Notes under the pieces: generated by a model
What the model was told of the DNA's origin: nothing
The model's input: the letters and a program-made list of their open reading frames with translations, nothing else
Databases searched by the model: none
Source: Kofleriaceae bacterium
GTDB lineage: Bacteria; Myxococcota_A; Polyangia; Haliangiales; Haliangiaceae
Direction of reading: 5' to 3'
Assembly (NCBI GenBank): GCA_965215005.1
Contig: CBDCCZ010000003.1
Span: forward strand, 224,001 to 288,000
Length of the DNA: 64,000 nt
Position numbers and translations under genes: made by a program
Part shown: positions 51,119 through 64,000 of the stretch, in pieces
Position numbering within the stretch: position 1 is the stretch's first letter
Layout: each line of letters opens with the position of its first letter

Positions 51119-54100
51119 CTACATGTTGCGGCGGTACTGCCCGCCCACCTCGTAAAGAGCGGCGGATATCTGGCCGAGCGTACAACTCTTCACCGTCTCC
51201 ATTAGAGTCGTAAAGATGTTGCCGTGCGTGAGCGCGGTCTCGCGCAGCGCCGCCAACGCCGCCGGAGCGCGTTCGGCATTGCGCCGCTGAAACGCCTCAA
51301 TGGAGGCGATGGCGTACTCTTTCTCCTCTTTGGTGGCACGAATGACCTCGCCCGGCAGAATGGTCGGAGAGCCTTTGGCATCGAGAAACGTGTTGACCCC
51401 CACGACCGGCAGTTTCCCCGAGTGCTTGAGCGACTCGTAGTGCAACGACTCTTCTTGGATCTTGGTGCGCTGATACATGCGCTCCATCGCGCCGAGCACG
51501 CCCCCGCGCTCCGAGATGCGGCGAAACTCGGAAAGCACCGCTTCTTCGACCAGGTCGGTCATCTCCTCGATGATGAACGAGCCCTGGAGTGGGTTCTCGT
51601 TCTTACTCTGGCCGAGCTCCTTGTTGATGATCAATTGGATCGCCAACGCCCGCCGCACGCTTTCCTCGGTGGGGGTCGTGATCGCTTCATCGTAGGCGTT
51701 GGTGTGTAGAGAGTTGCAGTTGTCGTAAAGTGCGTAAAGAGCTTGCAGAGTGGTTCGGATATCGTTGAAGGCAATCTCCTGCGCGTGGAGCGAACGACCC
51801 GAAGTCTGAATATGATACTTGAGTTTCTGCGACCGCGCGTTTCCTCCATACTTGCGCGCCATCGCCTTGGCCCATATGCGCCGCGCTACCCGGCCAATCA
51901 CTGAATACTCGGGATCCAATCCATTGGAGAAGAAGAAAGACAGATTGGGCGCGAATGCATCAATATGCATTCCGCGCGCGAGATAATACTCGACGTAGGT
52001 AAATCCATTGGCCAGCGTAAAGGCGAGCTGACTGATTGGATTGGCGCCCGCTTCTGCAATGTGATAGCCGGAGATGGAGACGGAGTAGAAATTTCTCACC
52101 TCGTTCTCCGTGAAGTACTGCTGAATGTCGCCCATCATGCGTAGTGCGAACTCGGTCGAGAAGATGCATGTATTCTGGGCTTGATCCTCTTTGAGGATGT
52201 CTGCTTGCACCGTGCCGCGCACCGACGACATGACCTCTGCCTTGATCTTCTGATAGACCTCCGCCGGAAGAACCTGATCGCCGCTCACGCCGAGGAGCAT
52301 CAAGCCAAGGCCGTCGTTGCCCGCGGGAATCTGCCCCTGGTAGCGCGGGCGCGGCAACTCGAGCTGACGGTAAATCGTCTCGATTCGCGCCTCAACCTCG
52401 TTTTCTAGCCCCTGGGCGCGGATGTACTTCTCGCAGCCCTGATCGATGGCCGCATCCATGAAGAACGCCAGCACCATCGGCGCCGGACCATTGATGGTCA
52501 TAGACACGCTCGTCGACGGATGAGCGAGGTCGAAGCCCGAGTAGAGCTTCTTGGCATCATCGACCGTTGCGACGCTAACGCCAGAGTTGCCGACCTTGCC
52601 GTAGATGTCCGGCCGATAATCGGGATCCTCACCATACAGCGTGACGGAGTCGAAGGCGGTCGAGAGACGTTTGGCAGCCAACCCGCTCGACACGTAGTGA
52701 AACCGCTTGTTCGTGCGTTCAGGGCCACCCTCTCCCGCGAACATCCGCGCCGGGTCCTCGCCTTGGCGCTTGAGCGGAAACACGCCCGCAGCGTACGGAA
52801 ACGCCCCTGGAACGTTTTCCGTGAGCAGCCAGTGGAGAATGTCACCCCAGTCTTGATACTTGGGCAACGCGATCTTGGGAATGCGCAGGTGGGAGAGCGA
52901 CTCGCTAAACAGCTCTTGCTCAATGACCTTGTCGCGCACCTGAAATCGATACTTGTCCGCTCGATAGCGCTCGACGACCGCCGGCCAGGTTTCCAGAAGC
53001 TGCTTACAGCCGGCGTCAAGACGGCGCTCGAGCTCCTGATACAGCGTCTCGAGCTCGCCGAGATACGCCGGAGCACTCTCAGTGGTTTGCACCGCGTGAA
53101 CCAGCGCGGCATCGCTATCGACGAGCTCGACCTTGGGCTTGCCCACGCGTGCCCGGAGCAGCTCGATGGTGCCCCGCAGTCGGTACAGCTCGCGGGCGGT
53201 GCGACACTGCGCATCGACCCAGTCGCGATAGCGGTCGCTGGTTTCCACGATCTCCGCCAGGTAGCGGACGCGCTCGGGAGGAATGATGTAGCGCTTCTCG
53301 CTCCTGGCTCCGCTCGGCTCGAACGTCGAGTGCAGCGGAGCACCGGTGGTTTCAGCCACTTTGTCGATGAGCCGCCGATAGAGGACATTGGTTCCCGGAT
53401 CACTAAACTGCGAAGCAATGGTGCCGTACACCGGCAGCTCGTCGTCTTCAGCGTGCCAGAGTCCGCGATTGCGCTTGTATTGCTTCTTGACGTCGCGCAG
53501 CGCATCGAGCGAGCCGCGCTTATCGAACTTGTTGATGGCAATCAAGTCGGCAAAATCGAGCATGTCGATCTTTTCGAGCTGGGTGGCGGCGCCATACTCA
53601 GACGTCATCACATACAATGAGACATCCGAGTGCTCGACGATTTCGGTATCCGACTGGCCGATTCCGGACGTCTCTACAATGATCAGATCGAATCCAGCCG
53701 CTTTGCAGATGTCGATTGACTCTTGTACGTAACGACTGAGCGCTAAGTTGGACTGCCTCGTCGCCAGCGAGCGCATGTAAACCCGCGGCGAGGCGATCGC
53801 GTTCATGCGAATGCGGTCCCCCAACAAGGCGCCGCCGGTGCGTCGCTTCGACGGATCGACGGAAATTACCGCAATCGTCTTATCTGTGAAATCGAGCAAG
53901 AAACGCCGGACCAGCTCATCGACCAGCGAAGACTTACCAGCGCCGCCGGTGCCCGTGATACCGAGAATCGGCACCGCGCGCTCCGCAATCCGCTGCCGCA
54001 GCGGCGCCCGCACCGTCTCGAATGCCTCGGGATGATTCTCGGCCAGCGTGATGAGCCGCGCGATCGCCTGCGGATTGTCCACCCGCAGCGCCTCCACGAG

Positions 54101-54565
54101 CGGCTCCGCCGGTGGCTCGGTAGCGGGGAAGTCGCACTGCTTCAGGAGGTCATCGATCATCCCCTGAAGTCCCAACGCGCGACCGTCATCCGGCGAGTAG
54201 ATGCGCGCGACGCCGGCGGCGTGAAGCTCGTCGATCTCGCTCGGCAAGATGGTGCCACCGCCCCCGCCGAAGACGCGAATGTTGGCGCCGCGCTCGGCGA
54301 GCAGCTCGACCATGTACTTGAAGTATTCGACGTGACCTCCTTGATAGGAAGTGATCGCGATGCCTTGCGCGTCCTCTTGGATGGCACAATCGACAATCTC
54401 GGCGACCGAGCGATTGTGGCCCAAGTGAATCACCTCGGCCCCGGATGCTTGGAGGATCCGCCGCATGATGTTGATCGCCGCGTCGTGACCATCGAAAAGC
54501 GACGCGGCGGTGACGATGCGAACGTGGTGCTCAGGACGATACGGGTCGGTTTTCGTTGCTTGCAT
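51119..54565 (-). CDS. icmF: Fused isobutyryl-CoA mutase / MeaI GTPase
   Basis: B12-binding [30 protein letters not shown], mutase barrel [31 protein letters not shown]. Confidence 0.96.
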
Positions 54566-54793
54566 CGCGGGACCTCCGCCGCATGCATAGCGCATGCTCA
54601 CCAAGCGCCACAAGGGCAGCTCGCCCGCGCGGGCTCACACCAATCGGGGGGTGCGGGCCCCGCGGCCTGCATCGCACGAGCGAAGGCGATGCCGCACGTG
54701 CCACGCGATCTCCGAGGTTTGCGGAGCCCGCCCACCGGCGACTCCCGCTGGATCGACCGTTGCAAACGCCACAGTCGAAGGCGCTTGGTTCCG

Positions 54794-61000: not shown

Positions 61001-61692
61001 GGCGCCGGCACGTGCTGTTGCTTGTCCATCAAGATCTCCAGCACGCTGCCGGTGAACGGCAGGCGGCCCGTGAGTGCCTGATAGAGCAATACGCCCGCTC
61101 CGTACCAATCGACCTCGGGCCCCACCGCCTTGGAAGCCGCTTGCTCTGGCGCCATGTATTCGGCGGTGCCCACCGCGCTACCGTCCGCCGATTGGCGCTC
61201 GAGATCGACCTCGGTGCTGAGACCGAAGTCGAGCAGCACCACACGACCGCTGCTGCTCACCAAGATATTCGACGGCTTGATATCGCGATGAACGGTGCCG
61301 GCGCGATGCAGGGCCGAGAGGCCGAGCGCGAGCTGGCGCAGCGCATCGCGCAGCCGACGCTCATCGAGAACCTGATCAGGACGGACGTAGGAGAGAAAAT
61401 CCACGCCTTCCACCAGCTCCATGGTGAAGAACCAGGCGTGGCCGCTTTGAATCAGCTCGCCCAAGCTCACGAGGTTGGCGTGCTCGAGATCCTGAAGCGT
61501 GCGAAATTCTTTCTTGAGGCGATAGAGCGACTGAGCGTCTACGTTGTGAAGCGTCTTTAAGGCGACGCGCGCCTCCTGGGCGCGGTCGAATACCTCGTAA
61601 ACGACGCCCATCCCGCCAGCGCCGAGCCGACGAATGACCTCGAAGCGCTCCGTCCCTTGAAAGTCGAATGAGGCGTGTGGATTGCCAAGCAC
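58060..61692 (-). CDS. Ser/Thr kinase + AAA (STAND-like) NTPase + TPR-like protein
   Basis: LGAGGMG, VALK, HRDIKPSN, DFG, YMAPE; Walker A GASGLGKS; Walker B IVIDDVQWAD; GHPLFI; helical C-terminus. Confidence 0.93.
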   Translation of the reverse strand: MLGNPHASFDFQGTERFEVIRRLGAGGMGVVYEVFDRAQEARVALKTLHNVDAQSLYRLKKEFRTLQDLEHANLVSLGELIQSGHAWFFTMELVEGVDFLSYVRPDQVLDERRLRDALRQLALGLSALHRAGTVHRDIKPSNILVSSSGRVVLLDFGLSTEVDLERQSADGSAVGTAEYMAPEQAASKAVGPEVDWYGAGVLLYQALTGRLPFTGSVLEILMDKQQHVPAPPRSHVPNLPDDLESLCCELLKYDPRERPPERSIMQRLGATEAEARAALAAPHLSMNAPFIGRTHEAKALAEALAEVRGGGGAAMLVHGASGLGKSALVRKFADEAATSDPAVVVLSGRCYEREALPYKAFDGVIDALSKHLRTLDDSRVAAVMPAEIALARRMFPVLGRVEAIARARTGLEVGGSQELRGRIFAAVRRLMSNLGTVSLLMIVIDDVQWADADSLALLRELLRPPDPPRLLLVLTARIDEGHTLEQVRGRLARVLPPPVRELEVRALVPQSALELARALLLRSGISSDSDAAAIAREAEGHPLFIAELVHRVASTGDGTAPVRLDEAIWSRVQGLPPSAKLILESISVAGAPLSQEVLRRATKLPPQDFQKGLSLLRVAHLVRMRAYGSGNAVEPYHDRVLEAVISHLDDRQRCARHEMLAAALEVEDQRPELLVRHLEAAGQRLKAADYAERAAAHAARALAFDRAAQLYRTALRLSEPQGPALRALQLALGDALLNAARGPEAADCFLAAAEGAEPTTRMECRRLAAEQLMISGHIERGLDTMDSLLVEMGVYLPKTAGRAFTSLLWNRLKLRLRGLKFKPRLESQVAREELMRVDVLKSISQGLSMVDSIRGSDFNTRDLLWALRTGEVKRVARALALEFGHMAAQGQFRRARRIARVAERLSDENHDPYIRAWTDACWGALHYFEGSFGEAVRTFDRSLSLLSSETRGAPWEIGQVRMFRLFALRRMGSMRELGATFEQMVRDAAQRGDRYTETTIRRYCSELWLARDEAAAAHLNLAQADWLPLEGHFHVQHWFELEARGELALYEDLAVGALEALSTGSKAMGSSLLMRVKMPRTLHHWLQARLRLAAAAAGHEPSTMRREVTKSIRLLAREKESYARVWRGLLEAALAHQEGDASRACDRLRQAMELAESREMHLAADLARLRLAGIVGGDEGEELRAAALRRLAVEGVAAPDRMLRVIVPGF

Positions 61693-61818
61693 AGCGAGTC
61701 CTTCGCCACGTCTCCACCCGCTGCTTCCCCCAATCGCGAGTGTACCTCATGGAGCGGTTGCCCTGTGAGACCCTCTTCAGAAGGGTCTATGGGCAAATGA
61801 GCGAGAATGTCGGAGGCG

Positions 61819-62031
61819 TCAAACCAACGGGTCTGCGGTGGGCAGCGTCCCCGCGGCCGTCTTCGCGCTGTACAGGTCGACCAGCTGTTCCTCGAGGCTA
61901 CGCACCATCGCGATGATGCGCTCGGCATCGGCCGTGCCTAGCACCCGAGCCAAGCGTTCTCGCTCGGCATAGAGACAGGTGAGCTGGGCCTCCATGTCAC
62001 CGCGATCTGCGGGCGGATTCTCGTGCGGCAT
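61819..62031 (-). CDS. Small hypothetical helical protein with a duplicated motif
   Basis: MEAQLTCLYAER and LEEQLVDLYSAK; divergent from the HTH-PYP gene. Confidence 0.7.
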   Translation of the reverse strand: MPHENPPADRGDMEAQLTCLYAERERLARVLGTADAERIIAMVRSLEEQLVDLYSAKTAAGTLPTADPLV

Positions 62032-62078
62032 CAACTGGCCAACGCTAGCACTAGTGCGCTACAAAGACGAGAGGCGAA

Positions 62079-62606
62079 ATGGACGATTTACTCACAACCC
62101 AGGAAGTGGCGAAGCTACTCGGCGTTGGCACCACCAGCATCAAGCGGTGGTCCGACGAAGGGAAGCTCCCGGCTTTCAAGACCGCCGGAGGACACCGCCG
62201 TTACCGCCGCGAGGACGTGGAAAAACTGCTACAGCACGCCACCGAGGACGAGGCCCTCCACGCGCGCCTGTCCGGGATGAGTCGCCGCGAAATCGACGCG
62301 TTAGCAGTGGGAGTCGTGCAGCTCGACGATGCCGGAATGGTGCTGCTCTACAACGCCGCAGAGGCGCGGTTTGCCGGTATTTCGGCCGAGGAAGCCGAGG
62401 GCAAGTGCTTCTTCACCGAAGTGGCACCTTGTACCAACAATCGGATTTTGATGGGGCGGTTTCGCGAAGGAATCCGGATCGGCCAACTCGACGCCCGGAT
62501 CGACTACACGTTTACCTATCGCATGCGGCCTACATTCGTCGCCTTGCACCTGTACCGAGATCCGCAGAGTCAGACCAACTGGCTGATCGTCGACCCGCGG
62601 CTCTAG
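62079..62606 (+). CDS. pyp: MerR/excisionase-type HTH fused to a photoactive yellow protein domain
   Basis: N-terminus [26 protein letters not shown]...TAGGHRRY; C-terminus GVVQLDDAG...YNAAE...[13 protein letters not shown]...[10 protein letters not shown], with Y42/E46/C69/F96/M100 equivalents at the Halorhodospira PYP spacing. Confidence 0.92.
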
Positions 62607-63077
62607 GGACGGGCTAAGTGAAGTCCACAGCGCCTTGCCGTGGAGCAGTGCGGTCGCGGGCTGAGAATCTGGCCTGAGCCGACTCGCCTCCATAGGCACG
62701 CAACGATAGGCGGTCGACCGGCCAACATCACTGCACGCACGCGGCCAGCTGCGCCACGGCAACGTCATGGTCGAGATAGTCGTTCCCGAAGTCGCTTCGC
62801 AGGCCATTATGAGCTCATCGCGGTGCTTGCTCGCGAACCAACGTTGAGGAGCCGTGAGCTGCGGCAGAGCCAGAAAATTGGCCCTACCGCTCGGTATCGT
62901 ACGCCGATCCGACCCGTGCGCGCTCACTTAGAAGAACGCGTCACAGCAGCTCCCCGGAATTGAGCACGCCGCGTCACCTTCGTACATGAACCGCAGCAGG
63001 TGCAACGGCGGCCGACGCCCCCGAGCACCGGGCGCGCTATCTGGCCTCCGCGAAGCCGCGTGGCCAAGCGCAAACCG

Positions 63078-64000
63078 CTAGCGCGAATTCGCGCGCGGCC
63101 GCGGAATGGAATACTTCTCGAGCCGCCGCACGAGCATGCGACGGGTCATGCCGAGCATTTGCGCCGCGCGAGTCTGGTTGCCAGCACAATGATCGAGCGC
63201 GGCGACGATGCGCGTTTTCTCGCTGCCACCGATTGGTAGCCGCGCCTCCGCAGGCAGCGACACCGATGGCTCCTCGCCGCGCGCGGCGCCTGCGGTCAAG
63301 GGATCGAGGGCCACGTGATGGGCCTCGATGGGCCCGCCGCCGGAAAACGCGACTGCGCGCTCCATGGCATTGCGCAGCTCGCGAATGTTTCCCGGCCAGC
63401 TGTGGCTGCGAAGCAGCGCCATCGCAGTCGGCGTGATGGTCGGTGCCGGAACCCCGGCGCGATTGGCAGCACGTTCGGCGAGCGCGGTGGCGAGCGGCGC
63501 GAGGTCGCCGGGACGCTCACGCAGCGGCGGGATCACGATTGAGACGCCGTTGATGCGAAAGTAGAGGTCGCGGCGGAACCGGCCATCGCGCACGTCTGCC
63601 GGCAAATCGCGATTGGTAGCCGAAATGAACCGCACGTCGATGGGGATCGACGTGCGACCGCCGATGCGCATCACCCGACGCTCCTCGAGCACCCGCAACA
63701 GCTTCACTTGCAGCGACAGCGGCAGCTCGCCTATCTCATCCAGGAAAACCGTGCCGCCCGAGGCTGCTTCGAGTAGTCCGGCGCGGGTTTGCTGGGCACC
63801 GGTGAAGGCGCCGCGTTCGTGGCCAAACAGCTCGCTCTCGAGCAACGTCTCGACCAGCGCGCCGCAGTTGATGGACATGAAGGTGTGATCACGACGCGGA
63901 GACAGGGCATGGGCGCGACGCGCAAAGACGTCTTTGCCGGCACCACTCTCGCCGAGCAGTAGCAGGCTCAGCTCCGAAGGGGCTAGCCGCGCGACCATCT
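63078..64000 (-). CDS. Sigma54-dependent enhancer-binding protein, 5' part beyond window
   Basis: GESGAGKD, GAFTGA, FLDEIGE, FRRDLYFRI, WPGNIREL, GNQTRAA HTH. Confidence 0.95.
   Translation of the reverse strand, partial: MVARLAPSELSLLLLGESGAGKDVFARRAHALSPRRDHTFMSINCGALVETLLESELFGHERGAFTGAQQTRAGLLEAASGGTVFLDEIGELPLSLQVKLLRVLEERRVMRIGGRTSIPIDVRFISATNRDLPADVRDGRFRRDLYFRINGVSIVIPPLRERPGDLAPLATALAERAANRAGVPAPTITPTAMALLRSHSWPGNIRELRNAMERAVAFSGGGPIEAHHVALDPLTAGAARGEEPSVSLPAEARLPIGGSEKTRIVAALDHCAGNQTRAAQMLGMTRRMLVRRLEKYSIPRPRANSR

What the first reader, a model, noticed from the sequence alone, without database searches (positions are those of the whole stretch)
62079..62606. One-component photoreceptor candidate: MerR-type HTH fused to photoactive yellow protein
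Seen: the PYP domain matches recalled Halorhodospira PYP numbering without gaps from Y42 to M100, keeping Y42, E46, the chromophore Cys69 (TGT 62430-62432), F96 and M100, with T50 to A and R52 to I. The N-terminal HTH (TAGGHRRY) is the MerR/BldC/CarH type. Known: PYP binds p-coumarate made by TAL and pCL, and its outputs are poorly understood; CarH uses a similar HTH with B12. Inference: a directly light-switched DNA-binding protein with a shifted spectrum or photocycle. No TAL or pCL gene is in this window. The fusion may already be catalogued, but I know of no functional characterisation.
Basis: partly seen in the sequence, partly recalled or inferred. Interest (0 to 1): 0.85.

Follow-up and report, generated by a model that had tools for sequence, protein, structure and literature searches.

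The report
DNA-binding photoactive yellow protein with partner
This gene fuses a small DNA-binding domain to a blue-light sensor (photoactive yellow protein) and always sits beside a tiny uncharacterised helper gene, so it offers a simple way to test how this classic photoreceptor passes on its signal.

Summary
Window 62079-62606 (+) encodes a 175-aa protein. It has an N-terminal HTH_17/MerR-type winged helix (res 4-52). A full photoactive yellow protein (PYP) domain follows, aligning without gaps to H. halophila PYP 8-122. Tyr42, Glu46 and Cys69 are invariant in 93 aligned homologues.

The fusion is a family of about 96 clusters, mostly Myxococcota MAGs. Two recent PYP surveys do not discuss it. 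One lists a single 'HTH_17 | PAS' entry in a supplement.

New here: a 70-aa acidic helical-hairpin gene (61819-62031, -) lies 47 bp upstream, divergently. It is adjacent to the fusion in all 16 fusion loci examined. In 401 Myxococcota genomes it occurs only in the 12 with the fusion, plus 2 where it lies near a stand-alone PYP. It tracks PYP, not the HTH: 14 of 31 against 0 of 48 metagenome loci.

The closest HTH relatives sit in CarH-like B12 photoreceptor regulators. No TAL or canonical pCL was found in this 92.8%-complete genome. T50A and R52I match the family consensus, so they do not indicate a shifted spectrum.

Best reading: a blue-light-switched transcription factor working with a small partner. 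Chromophore binding, DNA binding and partner binding are all inferred.

The parts
62079..62606 (+). HTH-PYP fusion gene, 175 aa plus stop
   Evidence: ORF list and sequence; Pfam, NCBIfam and PDB matches; AF2 model with pLDDT 93.3
62088..62234 (+). HTH_17 / MerR-type winged helix-turn-helix, residues 4-52 (basic; residues 1-56 have pI 8.1)
   Evidence: PF12728 56.9 bits; PF00376 and PF13411 above cut-off. BldC structure 6ama matches at E 1.8e-8. W24, G37, G38, R40 and R41 are invariant in 93 homologues. pI.
62208..62276 (+). Predicted continuous helix, residues 44-66, joining the HTH to the PYP N-terminal cap. Confidence is lower (pLDDT 66) in residues 51-60.
   Evidence: AF2 secondary structure and pLDDT by block. 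Linker length varies among homologues.
62247..62591 (+). PYP domain, residues 57-171, equivalent to H. halophila PYP 8-122, including the N-terminal cap
   Evidence: Gapless phmmer alignment. Foldseek to solved PYPs gives rmsd 1.3-1.5 A over 117 columns and TM (target) 0.86-0.91.
62349..62363 (+). Codons of Tyr91 (=Tyr42; 62349-62351) and Glu95 (=Glu46; 62361-62363), which hydrogen-bond the chromophore in known PYPs
   Evidence: Alignment; invariant in 93 homologues
62430..62432 (+). TGT codon of Cys118 (=Cys69), the predicted thioester attachment site for p-coumaric acid
   Evidence: Sequence, alignment, invariant in 93 homologues
61819..62031 (-). Conserved small partner gene: 70 aa from the ATG at 62031, with an alternative start at Met13 (61995), plus stop. 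Acidic (pI 4.6), predicted two-helix hairpin carrying two 'QLxxLY' motifs.
   Evidence: tblastn with this ORF alone finds it beside the fusion in all 15 other fusion loci. Alignments A2 and A3. AF2 hairpin H10-31/H36-59, core pLDDT above 90. No Pfam family. Genome co-occurrence.
62032..62078 (.). 47-bp divergent intergenic region (83 bp if the small gene starts at Met13), the likely shared promoter and operator region
   Evidence: Coordinates. The head-to-head arrangement recurs in 12 of 16 loci. No conserved motif was detected, so the operator role is inferred.

Best explanation
The gene encodes a blue-light-responsive transcription regulator. A MerR/CarH-type winged-helix DNA-binding domain is fused, through one continuous helix, to the N-terminal cap of a complete photoactive yellow protein domain.

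Proposed mechanism, all inferred from what is known of H. halophila PYP. p-Coumaric acid is thioester-linked to Cys118. Blue light isomerises it. Glu95 protonates it. The N-terminal cap (res 57-76) then undocks from the PAS beta-sheet. Because the cap is contiguous with the last helix of the HTH, this changes how the HTH domains are held or oligomerised, and so changes DNA binding.

A 70-aa acidic helical-hairpin protein, encoded head-to-head 47 bp upstream, is an obligate companion of the PYP domain. It most likely binds PYP in one of its two light states and tunes or relays the output. The divergent intergenic region is the most likely operator. That would make the pair a small autoregulated light switch.

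The direction of the switch is not determined. My guess is a dark-state repressor released by light (about 55:45). The basis is the CarH-like ancestry of the HTH and the carotenoid genes next to the fusion in two genera.

Shown here: architecture, residue conservation, fold, gene linkage. Inferred: chromophore loading, photocycle, DNA binding, partner binding, targets.
For: (1) Both domains are real and confidently folded. See the HMM and PDB matches, the AF2 model at pLDDT 93.3, and the Foldseek match of the PYP part to solved PYPs at rmsd 1.3-1.5 A.

(2) Tyr42, Glu46, Pro68 and Cys69 are invariant in 93 fusion homologues. The HTH residues W24, G37, G38, R40 and R41 are invariant too. The pocket positions checked (31, 62, 66, 67, 70, 96, 98, 100) are kept or conservatively changed in 10 compared copies, including tandem paralogues.

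(3) The HTH is 60-63% identical to the HTHs of two CarH-like proteins. Both show a weak NCBIfam CarH match (44.8 and 57.9 bits). Both show B12-binding-type motifs, which I recognised from memory. So a DNA-binding module used by a known photoreceptor repressor is here joined to a different light sensor.

(4) The topology, with the DNA binder N-terminal to the PYP cap, matches the engineered GCN4-PYP light-controlled DNA binder. That design exploits light-induced unfolding of the PYP N-terminal segment (PMC4469895, passages read).

(5) Partner gene. Using the G000 ORF alone as query, tblastn finds it next to the fusion in 15 of 15 other fusion loci. Among 401 sampled Myxococcota genomes its profile hits 14. 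These are the 12 with the fusion, plus 2 where it lies within 1-5 kb of a stand-alone PYP gene. In metagenome loci it is present in 14 of 31 with a PYP domain and 0 of 48 with only the HTH.

(6) In 12 of 16 loci the pair is head-to-head, with 28-142 bp between the assigned start codons in the 10 loci measured.

(7) The context in other genera suggests light protection. Carotenoid genes (phytoene synthase, two amine-oxidase-type desaturases) abut the fusion in G357 and G312.
Against: No experiment exists for any member.

The genome (92.8% complete, 8000 bases withheld) has no PF00221 aromatic ammonia-lyase at all, and no pCL. Its best TIGR02372 match is MenE, next to MenA. Of the 11 other fusion genomes, only 3 have a pCL-like match at E<=1e-20. 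All 7 lyases tested are HutH above its cut-off. The chromophore source is therefore unknown. This is not specific to the fusion, however. Only 1 of 23 other Myxococcota genomes with PYP-like domains has a pCL-like match. The literature reports TAL in 7 and pCL in 42 of 113 pyp operons (PMC12826048, section 8).

TIGR02373 scores below its equivalog cut-off. No conserved operator motif, promoter or inverted repeat was found. Neighbouring genes are not conserved across families, and in G000 they are a Ser/Thr kinase and an FHA-sigma54 activator with no obvious link to light. The relative position of the two domains in the model is uncertain (pTM 0.70, with a pLDDT dip at residues 51-60).
Confidence: 0.6

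Rival explanations
1. A hydroxycinnamate-availability sensor rather than primarily a light sensor. The organism makes no p-coumarate, so the regulator becomes active (holo) only when p-coumarate or a related acid is scavenged from outside and activated by a general aromatic-acid CoA ligase. DNA binding would then report chromophore loading, with light secondary or irrelevant.
For: The genome has no TAL (no PF00221 at all) and no canonical pCL. It does have two benzoate-CoA-ligase-family enzymes above their cut-off (409 and 386 bits against 375), which could activate aromatic acids. In family f23 a TonB-dependent receptor gene lies next to the module in 4 of 4 loci tested. Dohmen et al. also raise uptake of pCA from the environment.
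Against: The full photochemical set is invariant in 93 homologues: Tyr42, Glu46 as proton donor, Cys69, and the N-terminal cap. That is more than simple ligand capture would need. Lack of a recognisable TAL or pCL is common among PYP-bearing genomes, so it does not single out this family. The genome is incomplete.
Confidence: 0.15
2. Cys69 acts as a redox or thiol sensor without a chromophore. This has been suggested for some methylobacterial Ppr-type PYPs with altered pocket residues.
For: No chromophore pathway was detected. Xing et al. 2022 discuss putative redox sensing in PYP variants (PMC9664959, section 7).
Against: Those variants carry Y42C and S50C changes. Here Tyr42 and Glu46 are invariant and the hydrophobic pocket is intact. 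A lone buried Cys has no partner thiol in the domain.
Confidence: 0.05
3. The N-terminal domain is an excisionase or recombination-directionality type HTH of a mobile element, or a protein-binding module, rather than a transcription-factor domain.
For: TIGR01764 (excisionase-type DNA-binding domain) is matched above its cut-off, and there are weak matches to phage Cox and the IS607 transposase N-terminus.
Against: No integrase or transposase lies beside it in any of the loci annotated. GC3 matches the neighbours. The closest HTH relatives are CarH-like regulators. The small partner follows PYP, not the HTH.
Confidence: 0.05

Closest known systems
CarH / LitR family (MerR-type HTH + B12-binding domain; light-dependent repressors of carotenoid genes in Myxococcus, Thermus, Bacillus)
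   Same: N-terminal MerR-type winged helix, 60-63% identical to the HTHs of two CarH-like Myxococcota proteins. PDB matches to CarH (5c8d) and a cobalamin-binding regulator (8jbs, E 6e-7) fall in the HTH. The layout is a small DNA binder followed by a light sensor. Carotenoid genes are adjacent in two genera.
   Different: There is no B12-binding domain. The sensor is a PYP (PAS fold, p-coumarate, blue light). The oligomeric mechanism is unknown. It has a dedicated small hairpin partner. CarS, the antirepressor of CarA/CarH, is recalled only as a functional analogy, not a relative.
Stand-alone PYP (H. halophila) and known PYP fusions (Ppr, Ppd, PYP-HK, PYP-V4R, MCP-PYP)
   Same: Complete PYP domain with N-terminal cap, Tyr42/Glu46/Cys69 and the consensus pocket.
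   Different: The PYP is C-terminal to a DNA-binding domain. This output type is absent from the architectures described in PMC12826048 (section 6) and PMC9664959 (section 7). The protein is under 200 aa, so it falls under the 'single-domain' length criterion of the 2025 survey. A search for longer relatives found only MCP-, phytochrome- and EAL-linked PYPs (6 proteins).
Engineered GCN4-PYP photocontrolled DNA binder (Fan et al. 2011, as cited in PMC4469895)
   Same: The DNA-binding element is appended to the N-terminus of PYP, so that light-induced unfolding of the N-terminal segment controls DNA affinity.
   Different: That construct is synthetic, uses a bZIP zipper and has no partner protein. 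This protein is natural, uses a winged helix, and forms a conserved family.
Rhodobacter capsulatus Rc-PYP with PYP-binding protein (PBP)
   Same: A PYP works with a small acidic protein encoded next to it (PBP pI 3.9). Binding depends on the light state (bioRxiv 10.1101/2021.06.01.446672, passages read).
   Different: PBP is 142 aa, with predicted helices plus beta-sheets. The partner here is about 60-90 aa and an all-helical hairpin with two QLxxLY motifs. No sequence comparison was possible because the PBP sequence is not held.
LOV-based one-component regulators (EL222 LOV-HTH; aureochrome bZIP-LOV) - recalled, not tested
   Same: A PAS-type blue-light sensor is directly fused to a DNA-binding domain. 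Aureochrome shares the effector-then-sensor order, with signalling through the N-terminal flanking helix.
   Different: The chromophore is flavin rather than p-coumarate, the DNA-binding folds differ, and there is no dedicated hairpin partner.

Membership tests
Photoactive yellow protein (xanthopsin; TIGR02373) | PAS fold with the PYP-specific N-terminal cap | tested here: met
   Gapless alignment to PYP 8-122. The AF2 model superposes on solved PYPs at rmsd 1.3-1.5 A over 117 columns.
Photoactive yellow protein (xanthopsin; TIGR02373) | Cys69 for the thioester link, with Tyr42 and Glu46 hydrogen-bonding the chromophore | tested here: met
   C118, Y91 and E95 are present and invariant in 93 homologues.
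Photoactive yellow protein (xanthopsin; TIGR02373) | Score above the curated equivalog cut-off (143.05 bits) | tested here: not met
   111.6 bits. Many accepted PYP homologues in Xing et al. 2022 are likewise listed as 'photo_yellow (< cutoff)'.
Photoactive yellow protein (xanthopsin; TIGR02373) | Covalently bound p-coumaric acid and a blue-light photocycle | not testable with these tools
   Needs protein expression and spectroscopy.
Photoactive yellow protein (xanthopsin; TIGR02373) | Chromophore supply genes (TAL and pCL) in the genome | tested here: not met
   No PF00221 match. The best TIGR02372 match (50.9 bits) is MenE. The genome is 92.8% complete, so absence is not proven. This feature is also missing from most pyp operons in the literature.
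MerR family transcription regulators | N-terminal winged HTH matching PF00376 / PF13411 | tested here: met
   36.8 and 37.1 bits against cut-offs of 28.2 and 21.6.
MerR family transcription regulators | C-terminal coiled-coil dimerisation helix and effector-binding region | tested here: not met
   PF13411 matches only profile positions 2-47 of 69. After residue 52 the chain enters the PYP domain.
BldC family (NF033787) | Score above the subfamily cut-off (77 bits); small stand-alone HTH protein | tested here: not met
   61.6 bits. The protein is a two-domain fusion. Structural relatives 6ama and 6amk match at E 2e-8 and 5e-8.
HTH_17 / excisionase-type DNA-binding domain (PF12728, TIGR01764) | Domain model above its cut-off | tested here: met
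   PF12728 56.9 against 27; TIGR01764 47.9 against 28.8.
CarH / LitR B12-dependent photoreceptor regulators | B12-binding domain following the HTH | tested here: not met
   NF052513 scores 16.6 bits against 400 and covers only the HTH. There is no B12-binding Pfam match.

The most novel reading that the evidence does not exclude
The HTH-PYP protein and its 70-aa hairpin neighbour form a two-protein light switch, and the hairpin is a downstream partner of PYP of the kind sought for decades. Light-driven release of the PYP N-terminal cap would exchange cap docking for hairpin docking, or the reverse, and that exchange would gate DNA binding. The same hairpin motif also occurs in three other settings: as multi-repeat proteins beside stand-alone PYPs; as single helices fused N-terminally to some PYPs; and in proteins from other phyla, named by their sources as Planctomycetota, Armatimonadota (Capsulimonas), Leptospiraceae and Kapabacteria. 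It may therefore be an ancestral, general PYP signalling partner in the phylum where PYP is thought to have arisen. The module would also have to obtain its chromophore without TAL or a canonical pCL.
Probability: 0.3. Interest if true: 0.88.

Novelty: new variant of a known kind. Interest (0 to 1): 0.77.

Why it matters
PYP is one of the most thoroughly studied photoreceptors in biophysics, yet how it passes its signal on in cells is still largely unknown. The preprint and review passages read here state that no downstream partner is established for the classic protein.

A natural PYP wired directly to a DNA-binding domain gives an output that can be read with standard assays: EMSA, DAP-seq and reporter fusions. 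A strictly co-occurring 70-aa partner gives a concrete candidate for a PYP-interacting protein.

If it works as proposed, it would be a third chromophore class of simple bacterial light-switched transcription factors, after flavin (LOV/BLUF) and B12 (CarH). It would be the natural counterpart of an engineered optogenetic design. At 175 aa plus 70 aa, it would also be a very compact blue-light gene switch. The apparent lack of TAL and pCL in most carrier genomes raises a separate question about where the chromophore comes from.

Tried and rejected
1. Complex prediction of the fusion (alignment A1) with the small protein (A2): no verdict. The scores were 0.21 and 0.22, below the mark of 0.32, and the controls were not run. 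This is neither for nor against binding.

2. Operator search. k-mer motifs shared by 7 divergent intergenic regions, one per genus, did not exceed shuffled controls. There was no sigma70-like promoter or intrinsic terminator in 61600-63100. There was no inverted repeat in 61950-62120, and only two short two-copy direct repeats.

3. Rfam on the whole window: 0 matches at gathering threshold.

4. Single origin of the fusion. On a quick ML tree of 120 PYP domains (114 columns) the fusion label needs 8 changes, at least 3 of them forced by well-supported branches. It is clustered (0 of 500 shuffles as low), but one origin is not shown. Some 'PYP-only' rows may be truncated gene calls.

5. ESM Atlas for the small protein. 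The first call was answered as closed for new sequences. A stored homologue gave no usable hit.

6. Sequencing runs: no RNA holder is listed.

7. Earlier findings of this scan: nothing by place, sequence or words.

8. The genome-contig scan with the single protein gave only 2 loci. The metagenome scan returned mostly stand-alone PYPs and HTH-only genes. Those served as controls.

9. I considered the G380 TAL-like and ligase pair as a PYP chromophore operon. It sits among a thioesterase, an acyltransferase and a halogenase/reductase-like gene, on a different contig from the fusion, so it may belong to another pathway.

10. The conserved-neighbourhood idea failed. Apart from the small gene, no neighbour is shared by all families.

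11. Meyer et al. 2012 (Photochem Photobiol Sci 11:1495) is not held. I cannot exclude that it mentions this architecture.
Full report
**The observation**

The window holds an ATG-initiated ORF at 62079-62606 (+) of 175 aa.
- Pfam places HTH_17 at residues 4-52 (E 2.5e-15). MerR and MerR_1 are above their cut-offs. A PAS fold lies at residues 69-155.
- NCBIfam's best model for residues 58-171 is TIGR02373 'photoactive yellow protein'. The score is 111.6 bits, below the equivalog cut-off of 143.05.
- For the N-terminus, NCBIfam gives BldC-type HTH (61.6 bits, below 77) and the excisionase-type domain (47.9 bits, above 28.8).
- phmmer against all PDB sequences aligns residues 57-171 to H. halophila PYP 8-122 without a gap (E about 1e-23). 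It aligns the N-terminus to BldC (6ama, E 1.8e-8) and to a cobalamin-binding regulator (8jbs, E 6e-7).

These are Tyr42, Glu46, Cys69 (TGT 62430-62432), Phe96 and Met100, with Ala at position 50 and Ile at position 52.

**A conserved family, not a one-off**

The large protein database returned 490 relatives. Of the 120 listed, 96 (P0001-P0096) carry the same HTH plus PAS architecture at 163-247 aa. [quoted passage not shown] JGI names them 'photoactive yellow protein'.

In an alignment of 93 of them (I left out P0008, P0023 and P0025):
- The HTH residues W24, G37, G38, R40 and R41 are invariant.
- The PYP residues G29, Y42, E46, G59, F63, P68 and C69 (H. halophila numbering) are invariant.
- Ten copies compared in detail, including tandem paralogues, all keep Tyr42, Glu46 and Cys69.

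An AlphaFold2 model built on that alignment has mean pLDDT 93.3. Its PYP part superposes on solved PYP structures at 1.3-1.5 A over 117 columns. The model shows one helix, residues 44-66, running from the end of the HTH domain into the first helix of the PYP N-terminal cap. Confidence is lower at residues 51-60, and pTM is 0.70, so the relative domain orientation is not fixed. A search restricted to longer proteins found only MCP-PYP, phytochrome-type and EAL-linked PYPs (6 proteins), none with an HTH.

**Distribution**

Among 401 sampled genomes of the same phylum, full-length matches occur in 12:
- G000 itself.
- One genome of another family in its class (G380).
- Six genomes of family f23.
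- Four genomes of family f21, one of which has two tandem copies.

None of the other six genomes of G000's own family has the fusion. Record titles of related loci and database names show the phylum to be Myxococcota.

**Where the HTH comes from**

The same search found HTH-only matches (44-63% identity to residues 1-57) in longer frames in about 20 other genomes. I examined the two with stored loci. Both are 60-63% identical in the HTH. Both continue into a region with weak NCBIfam CarH matches (44.8 and 57.9 bits, far below the cut-off of 400). Both show motifs that I recognise from memory as the CarH-type B12-binding signatures. The DNA-binding module is therefore the kind used by CarH/LitR light-dependent repressors, joined here to a different photosensor. 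G000 has no close paralogue of this HTH.

**A conserved partner gene (new)**

The 44-47 bp upstream of the fusion gene separate it from a divergent small ORF. That ORF is 61819-62034 (-) by the ORF list, or 70 aa from the ATG at 62031. I first took it for noise.

Used alone as a tblastn query, it found a homologue directly beside the fusion gene in every other fusion locus held, 15 of 15 (E 1e-8 to 2e-14, 40-68% identity). The arrangement across all 16 loci is:
- head-to-head in 12;
- downstream in the same direction in 3 (fusion, small gene, then a DUF455 protein);
- tail-to-tail in 1.

The proteins are about 59-99 aa. They share a 45-residue core with two 'QLxxLY' motifs and an invariant Gly between them. 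They are uniformly acidic (median pI 4.46 over 98 sequences). They have no Pfam family. They fold in AlphaFold2 as a two-helix hairpin, H10-31 and H36-59, with core pLDDT above 90.

A profile search of the large database found 184 clusters, all unnamed or 'hypothetical'. At least 26 of the listed fusion clusters share their longest-contig length with a listed hairpin cluster, which is an indirect sign that they lie on the same contig.

In the 401-genome sample the profile hits 14 genomes. These are exactly the 12 with the fusion, each with one strong adjacent hit. The other two (G120, G111) have weaker multi-repeat versions about 4.5 kb and 0.9 kb from a stand-alone PYP gene. The 12 strong hits are partly by construction, because the profile was built from those loci. 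The informative results are the absence of the profile elsewhere and the single-sequence search.

In metagenome loci the hairpin profile hits 14 of 31 loci that carry a PYP domain, always within 0-247 bp of it. It hits 0 of 48 loci that carry only the HTH. So the partner follows PYP, not the DNA-binding domain. Three of the 120 PYP-family proteins carry a single copy of the motif helix fused N-terminally to their PYP domain (E about 1e-4). Longer partner forms are tandem repeats of the hairpin. A structure-based complex test gave no verdict (see Tried and rejected).

**Chromophore supply**

The genome is 6.2 Mb in 62 contigs, 92.8% complete, with 8000 bases withheld.
- It has no PF00221 aromatic ammonia-lyase at all.
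- It has no TIGR02372 ligase above cut-off. The best match is MenE, next to MenA.
- Its other AMP-forming ligases are acetate, fatty-acid and NRPS types, plus two benzoate-CoA-ligase-family enzymes just above their cut-off. These two are the only visible candidates for activating an aromatic acid.

Among the 11 other genomes with the fusion:
- All have one lyase, and the 7 tested are histidine ammonia-lyases above the HutH cut-off.
- Only G380 has a second, TAL-like lyase. It lies beside a pCL-like ligase, in a cluster that may serve another pathway.
- Only 3 of 11 have a pCL-like match at E<=1e-20.

This is not peculiar to the fusion. Only 1 of 23 other Myxococcota genomes with PYP-like domains has such a match. 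Dohmen et al. 2025 found TAL in 7 and pCL in 42 of 113 pyp operons, and they raise uptake of p-coumarate (PMC12826048, section 8).

G000 also encodes a second PYP-type domain (Phe42, Glu46, Cys69), at the N-terminus of a 367-aa histidine kinase on contig C23. The genome therefore keeps two Cys69-bearing domains with no recognisable pathway. Either the pathway lies in the missing 7% of the genome, or the chromophore is scavenged and activated by an unrecognised ligase.

**Neighbourhoods**

Apart from the hairpin gene, nothing is shared by all families.
- In G000 the flanks are a 1210-aa Ser/Thr kinase with an AAA_16 domain, and a convergent FHA-sigma54 activator.
- In family f23, a ~950-aa TonB-dependent receptor with a fused TonB_C domain is adjacent in the 4 loci tested.
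- In two f21 genera the fusion abuts carotenoid genes: phytoene synthase and amine-oxidase-type desaturases.
- In G007, G362 and metagenome locus L069 the order is fusion (two tandem copies in G007 and L069, one in G362), hairpin, then a ~650-aa DUF455 protein. An epimerase/DUF1731 protein or a DUF1722 protein lies nearby. I recall DUF1722 proteins as photolyase-associated in E. coli, but I did not test that.

These hints point toward light protection, but they are not general.

**Mechanism**

What follows is inference from the established photocycle of H. halophila PYP: trans-cis isomerisation, proton transfer from Glu46, and partial unfolding of the N-terminal cap in the signalling state. 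It also draws on the engineered GCN4-PYP protein, in which a DNA binder appended to the PYP N-terminus becomes light-controlled through that unfolding (PMC4469895, passages).

In the natural fusion the cap is contiguous with the HTH's last helix. Cap release should therefore change how the HTH is held or oligomerised, and so change DNA binding. The acidic hairpin follows PYP, so it most plausibly docks on the PYP domain in one light state and modulates or relays the output. The head-to-head promoter region is the likely operator. I could not find an operator motif, and the direction of the switch is open.

**Comparison with the literature**

Two recent surveys of the family do not contain the words HTH, MerR, helix-turn-helix or DNA-binding in their main text.
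- The 2025 survey calls proteins multi-domain only above 200 aa (section 6), which puts most of this family in the 'single-domain' class. [quoted passage not shown]
- In the 2022 survey's table, all 12 'MerR', 12 'helix-turn-helix' and 3 'HTH' occurrences are in gene-neighbourhood columns.
- The recurring operon partners tabulated in 2025 include neither an HTH nor a small hairpin protein.

Full-text searches for PYP with MerR, helix-turn-helix, myxobacteria, HTH_17, GCN4 or PYP-binding protein turned up no paper describing the fusion or the hairpin partner, judged from titles and abstract starts of the rows listed. The 2012 review by Meyer et al. is not held and could mention it.

The same 2025 paper gives Ala50 and Leu52 as the family consensus (section 5).

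**Verdict**

This is a real, conserved and essentially undescribed variant of a famous photoreceptor. Its output domain is directly readable, and it has a newly noticed, strictly linked partner gene. All functional statements remain to be tested.

Noticed in passing
window 61819-62031 (-); also L011, L012, L016, L059-L070 next to each fusion gene: A 70-aa acidic two-helix hairpin protein with two QLxxLY motifs and no Pfam family. It is adjacent to the HTH-PYP gene in 16 of 16 loci, and it tracks the PYP domain rather than the HTH (14 of 31 against 0 of 48 metagenome loci).
   Followed up: yes
G000:C23:40622-41722 (L153:4622-5722, +): A second PYP-type domain in the same genome (Phe42, Glu46, Cys69), at the N-terminus of a 367-aa HisKA/HATPase histidine kinase. 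No ligase or lyase lies beside it.
   Followed up: partly
L065:7847-9341 (G007) and L069:1130-2632: Two tandem HTH-PYP paralogues, both keeping Tyr42, Glu46 and Cys69, followed by the hairpin gene and a ~650-aa DUF455 protein in one direction. G362 (L064) has one fusion, the hairpin and DUF455.
   Followed up: partly
L063:1-4501 (G357) and L062:3773-7953 (G312): Carotenoid-type genes (phytoene synthase SQS_PSY and two Amino_oxidase desaturase-like genes) directly abut the fusion gene, convergently.
   Followed up: partly
L059:4862-7819, L060:4493-7474, L067:2259-5156, L068:5649-8393: In family f23 the module lies next to a ~950-aa TonB-dependent receptor that carries a TonB_C domain fused at its N-terminus, an unusual architecture. 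Any link to chromophore uptake is speculation.
   Followed up: no
P0107, P0109, P0113 (database proteins); P0121-P0130: Some PYPs of 160-175 aa carry one copy of the hairpin's motif helix fused N-terminally (E about 1e-4). Proteins of 144-166 aa are tandem duplications of the hairpin plus a C-terminal extension; one is named as coming from a Planctomycetota MAG.
   Followed up: partly
L029:1501-2337 (+), L034:853-1665 (-): CarH-like proteins (HTH plus a B12-binding-type region) in other Myxococcota genomes whose HTH is 60-63% identical to that of the fusion. This suggests exchange of sensor modules on one DNA-binding domain.
   Followed up: partly
window 51122-54613 (-): An 1164-aa fused B12-binding + MeaB GTPase + methylmalonyl-CoA-mutase-type protein, with IcmF-like architecture. 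It is a known kind and unrelated to the finding.
   Followed up: no
L151:5842-10649 (G380:C32): A TAL-like lyase (best NCBIfam match BagA/FevW tyrosine ammonia-lyase, 437 bits, below cut-off) near a pCL-like ligase (144 bits). They sit among a thioesterase, an acyltransferase and a halogenase/reductase-like gene, which suggests a possible aryl-polyene or similar pathway rather than PYP maturation.
   Followed up: no
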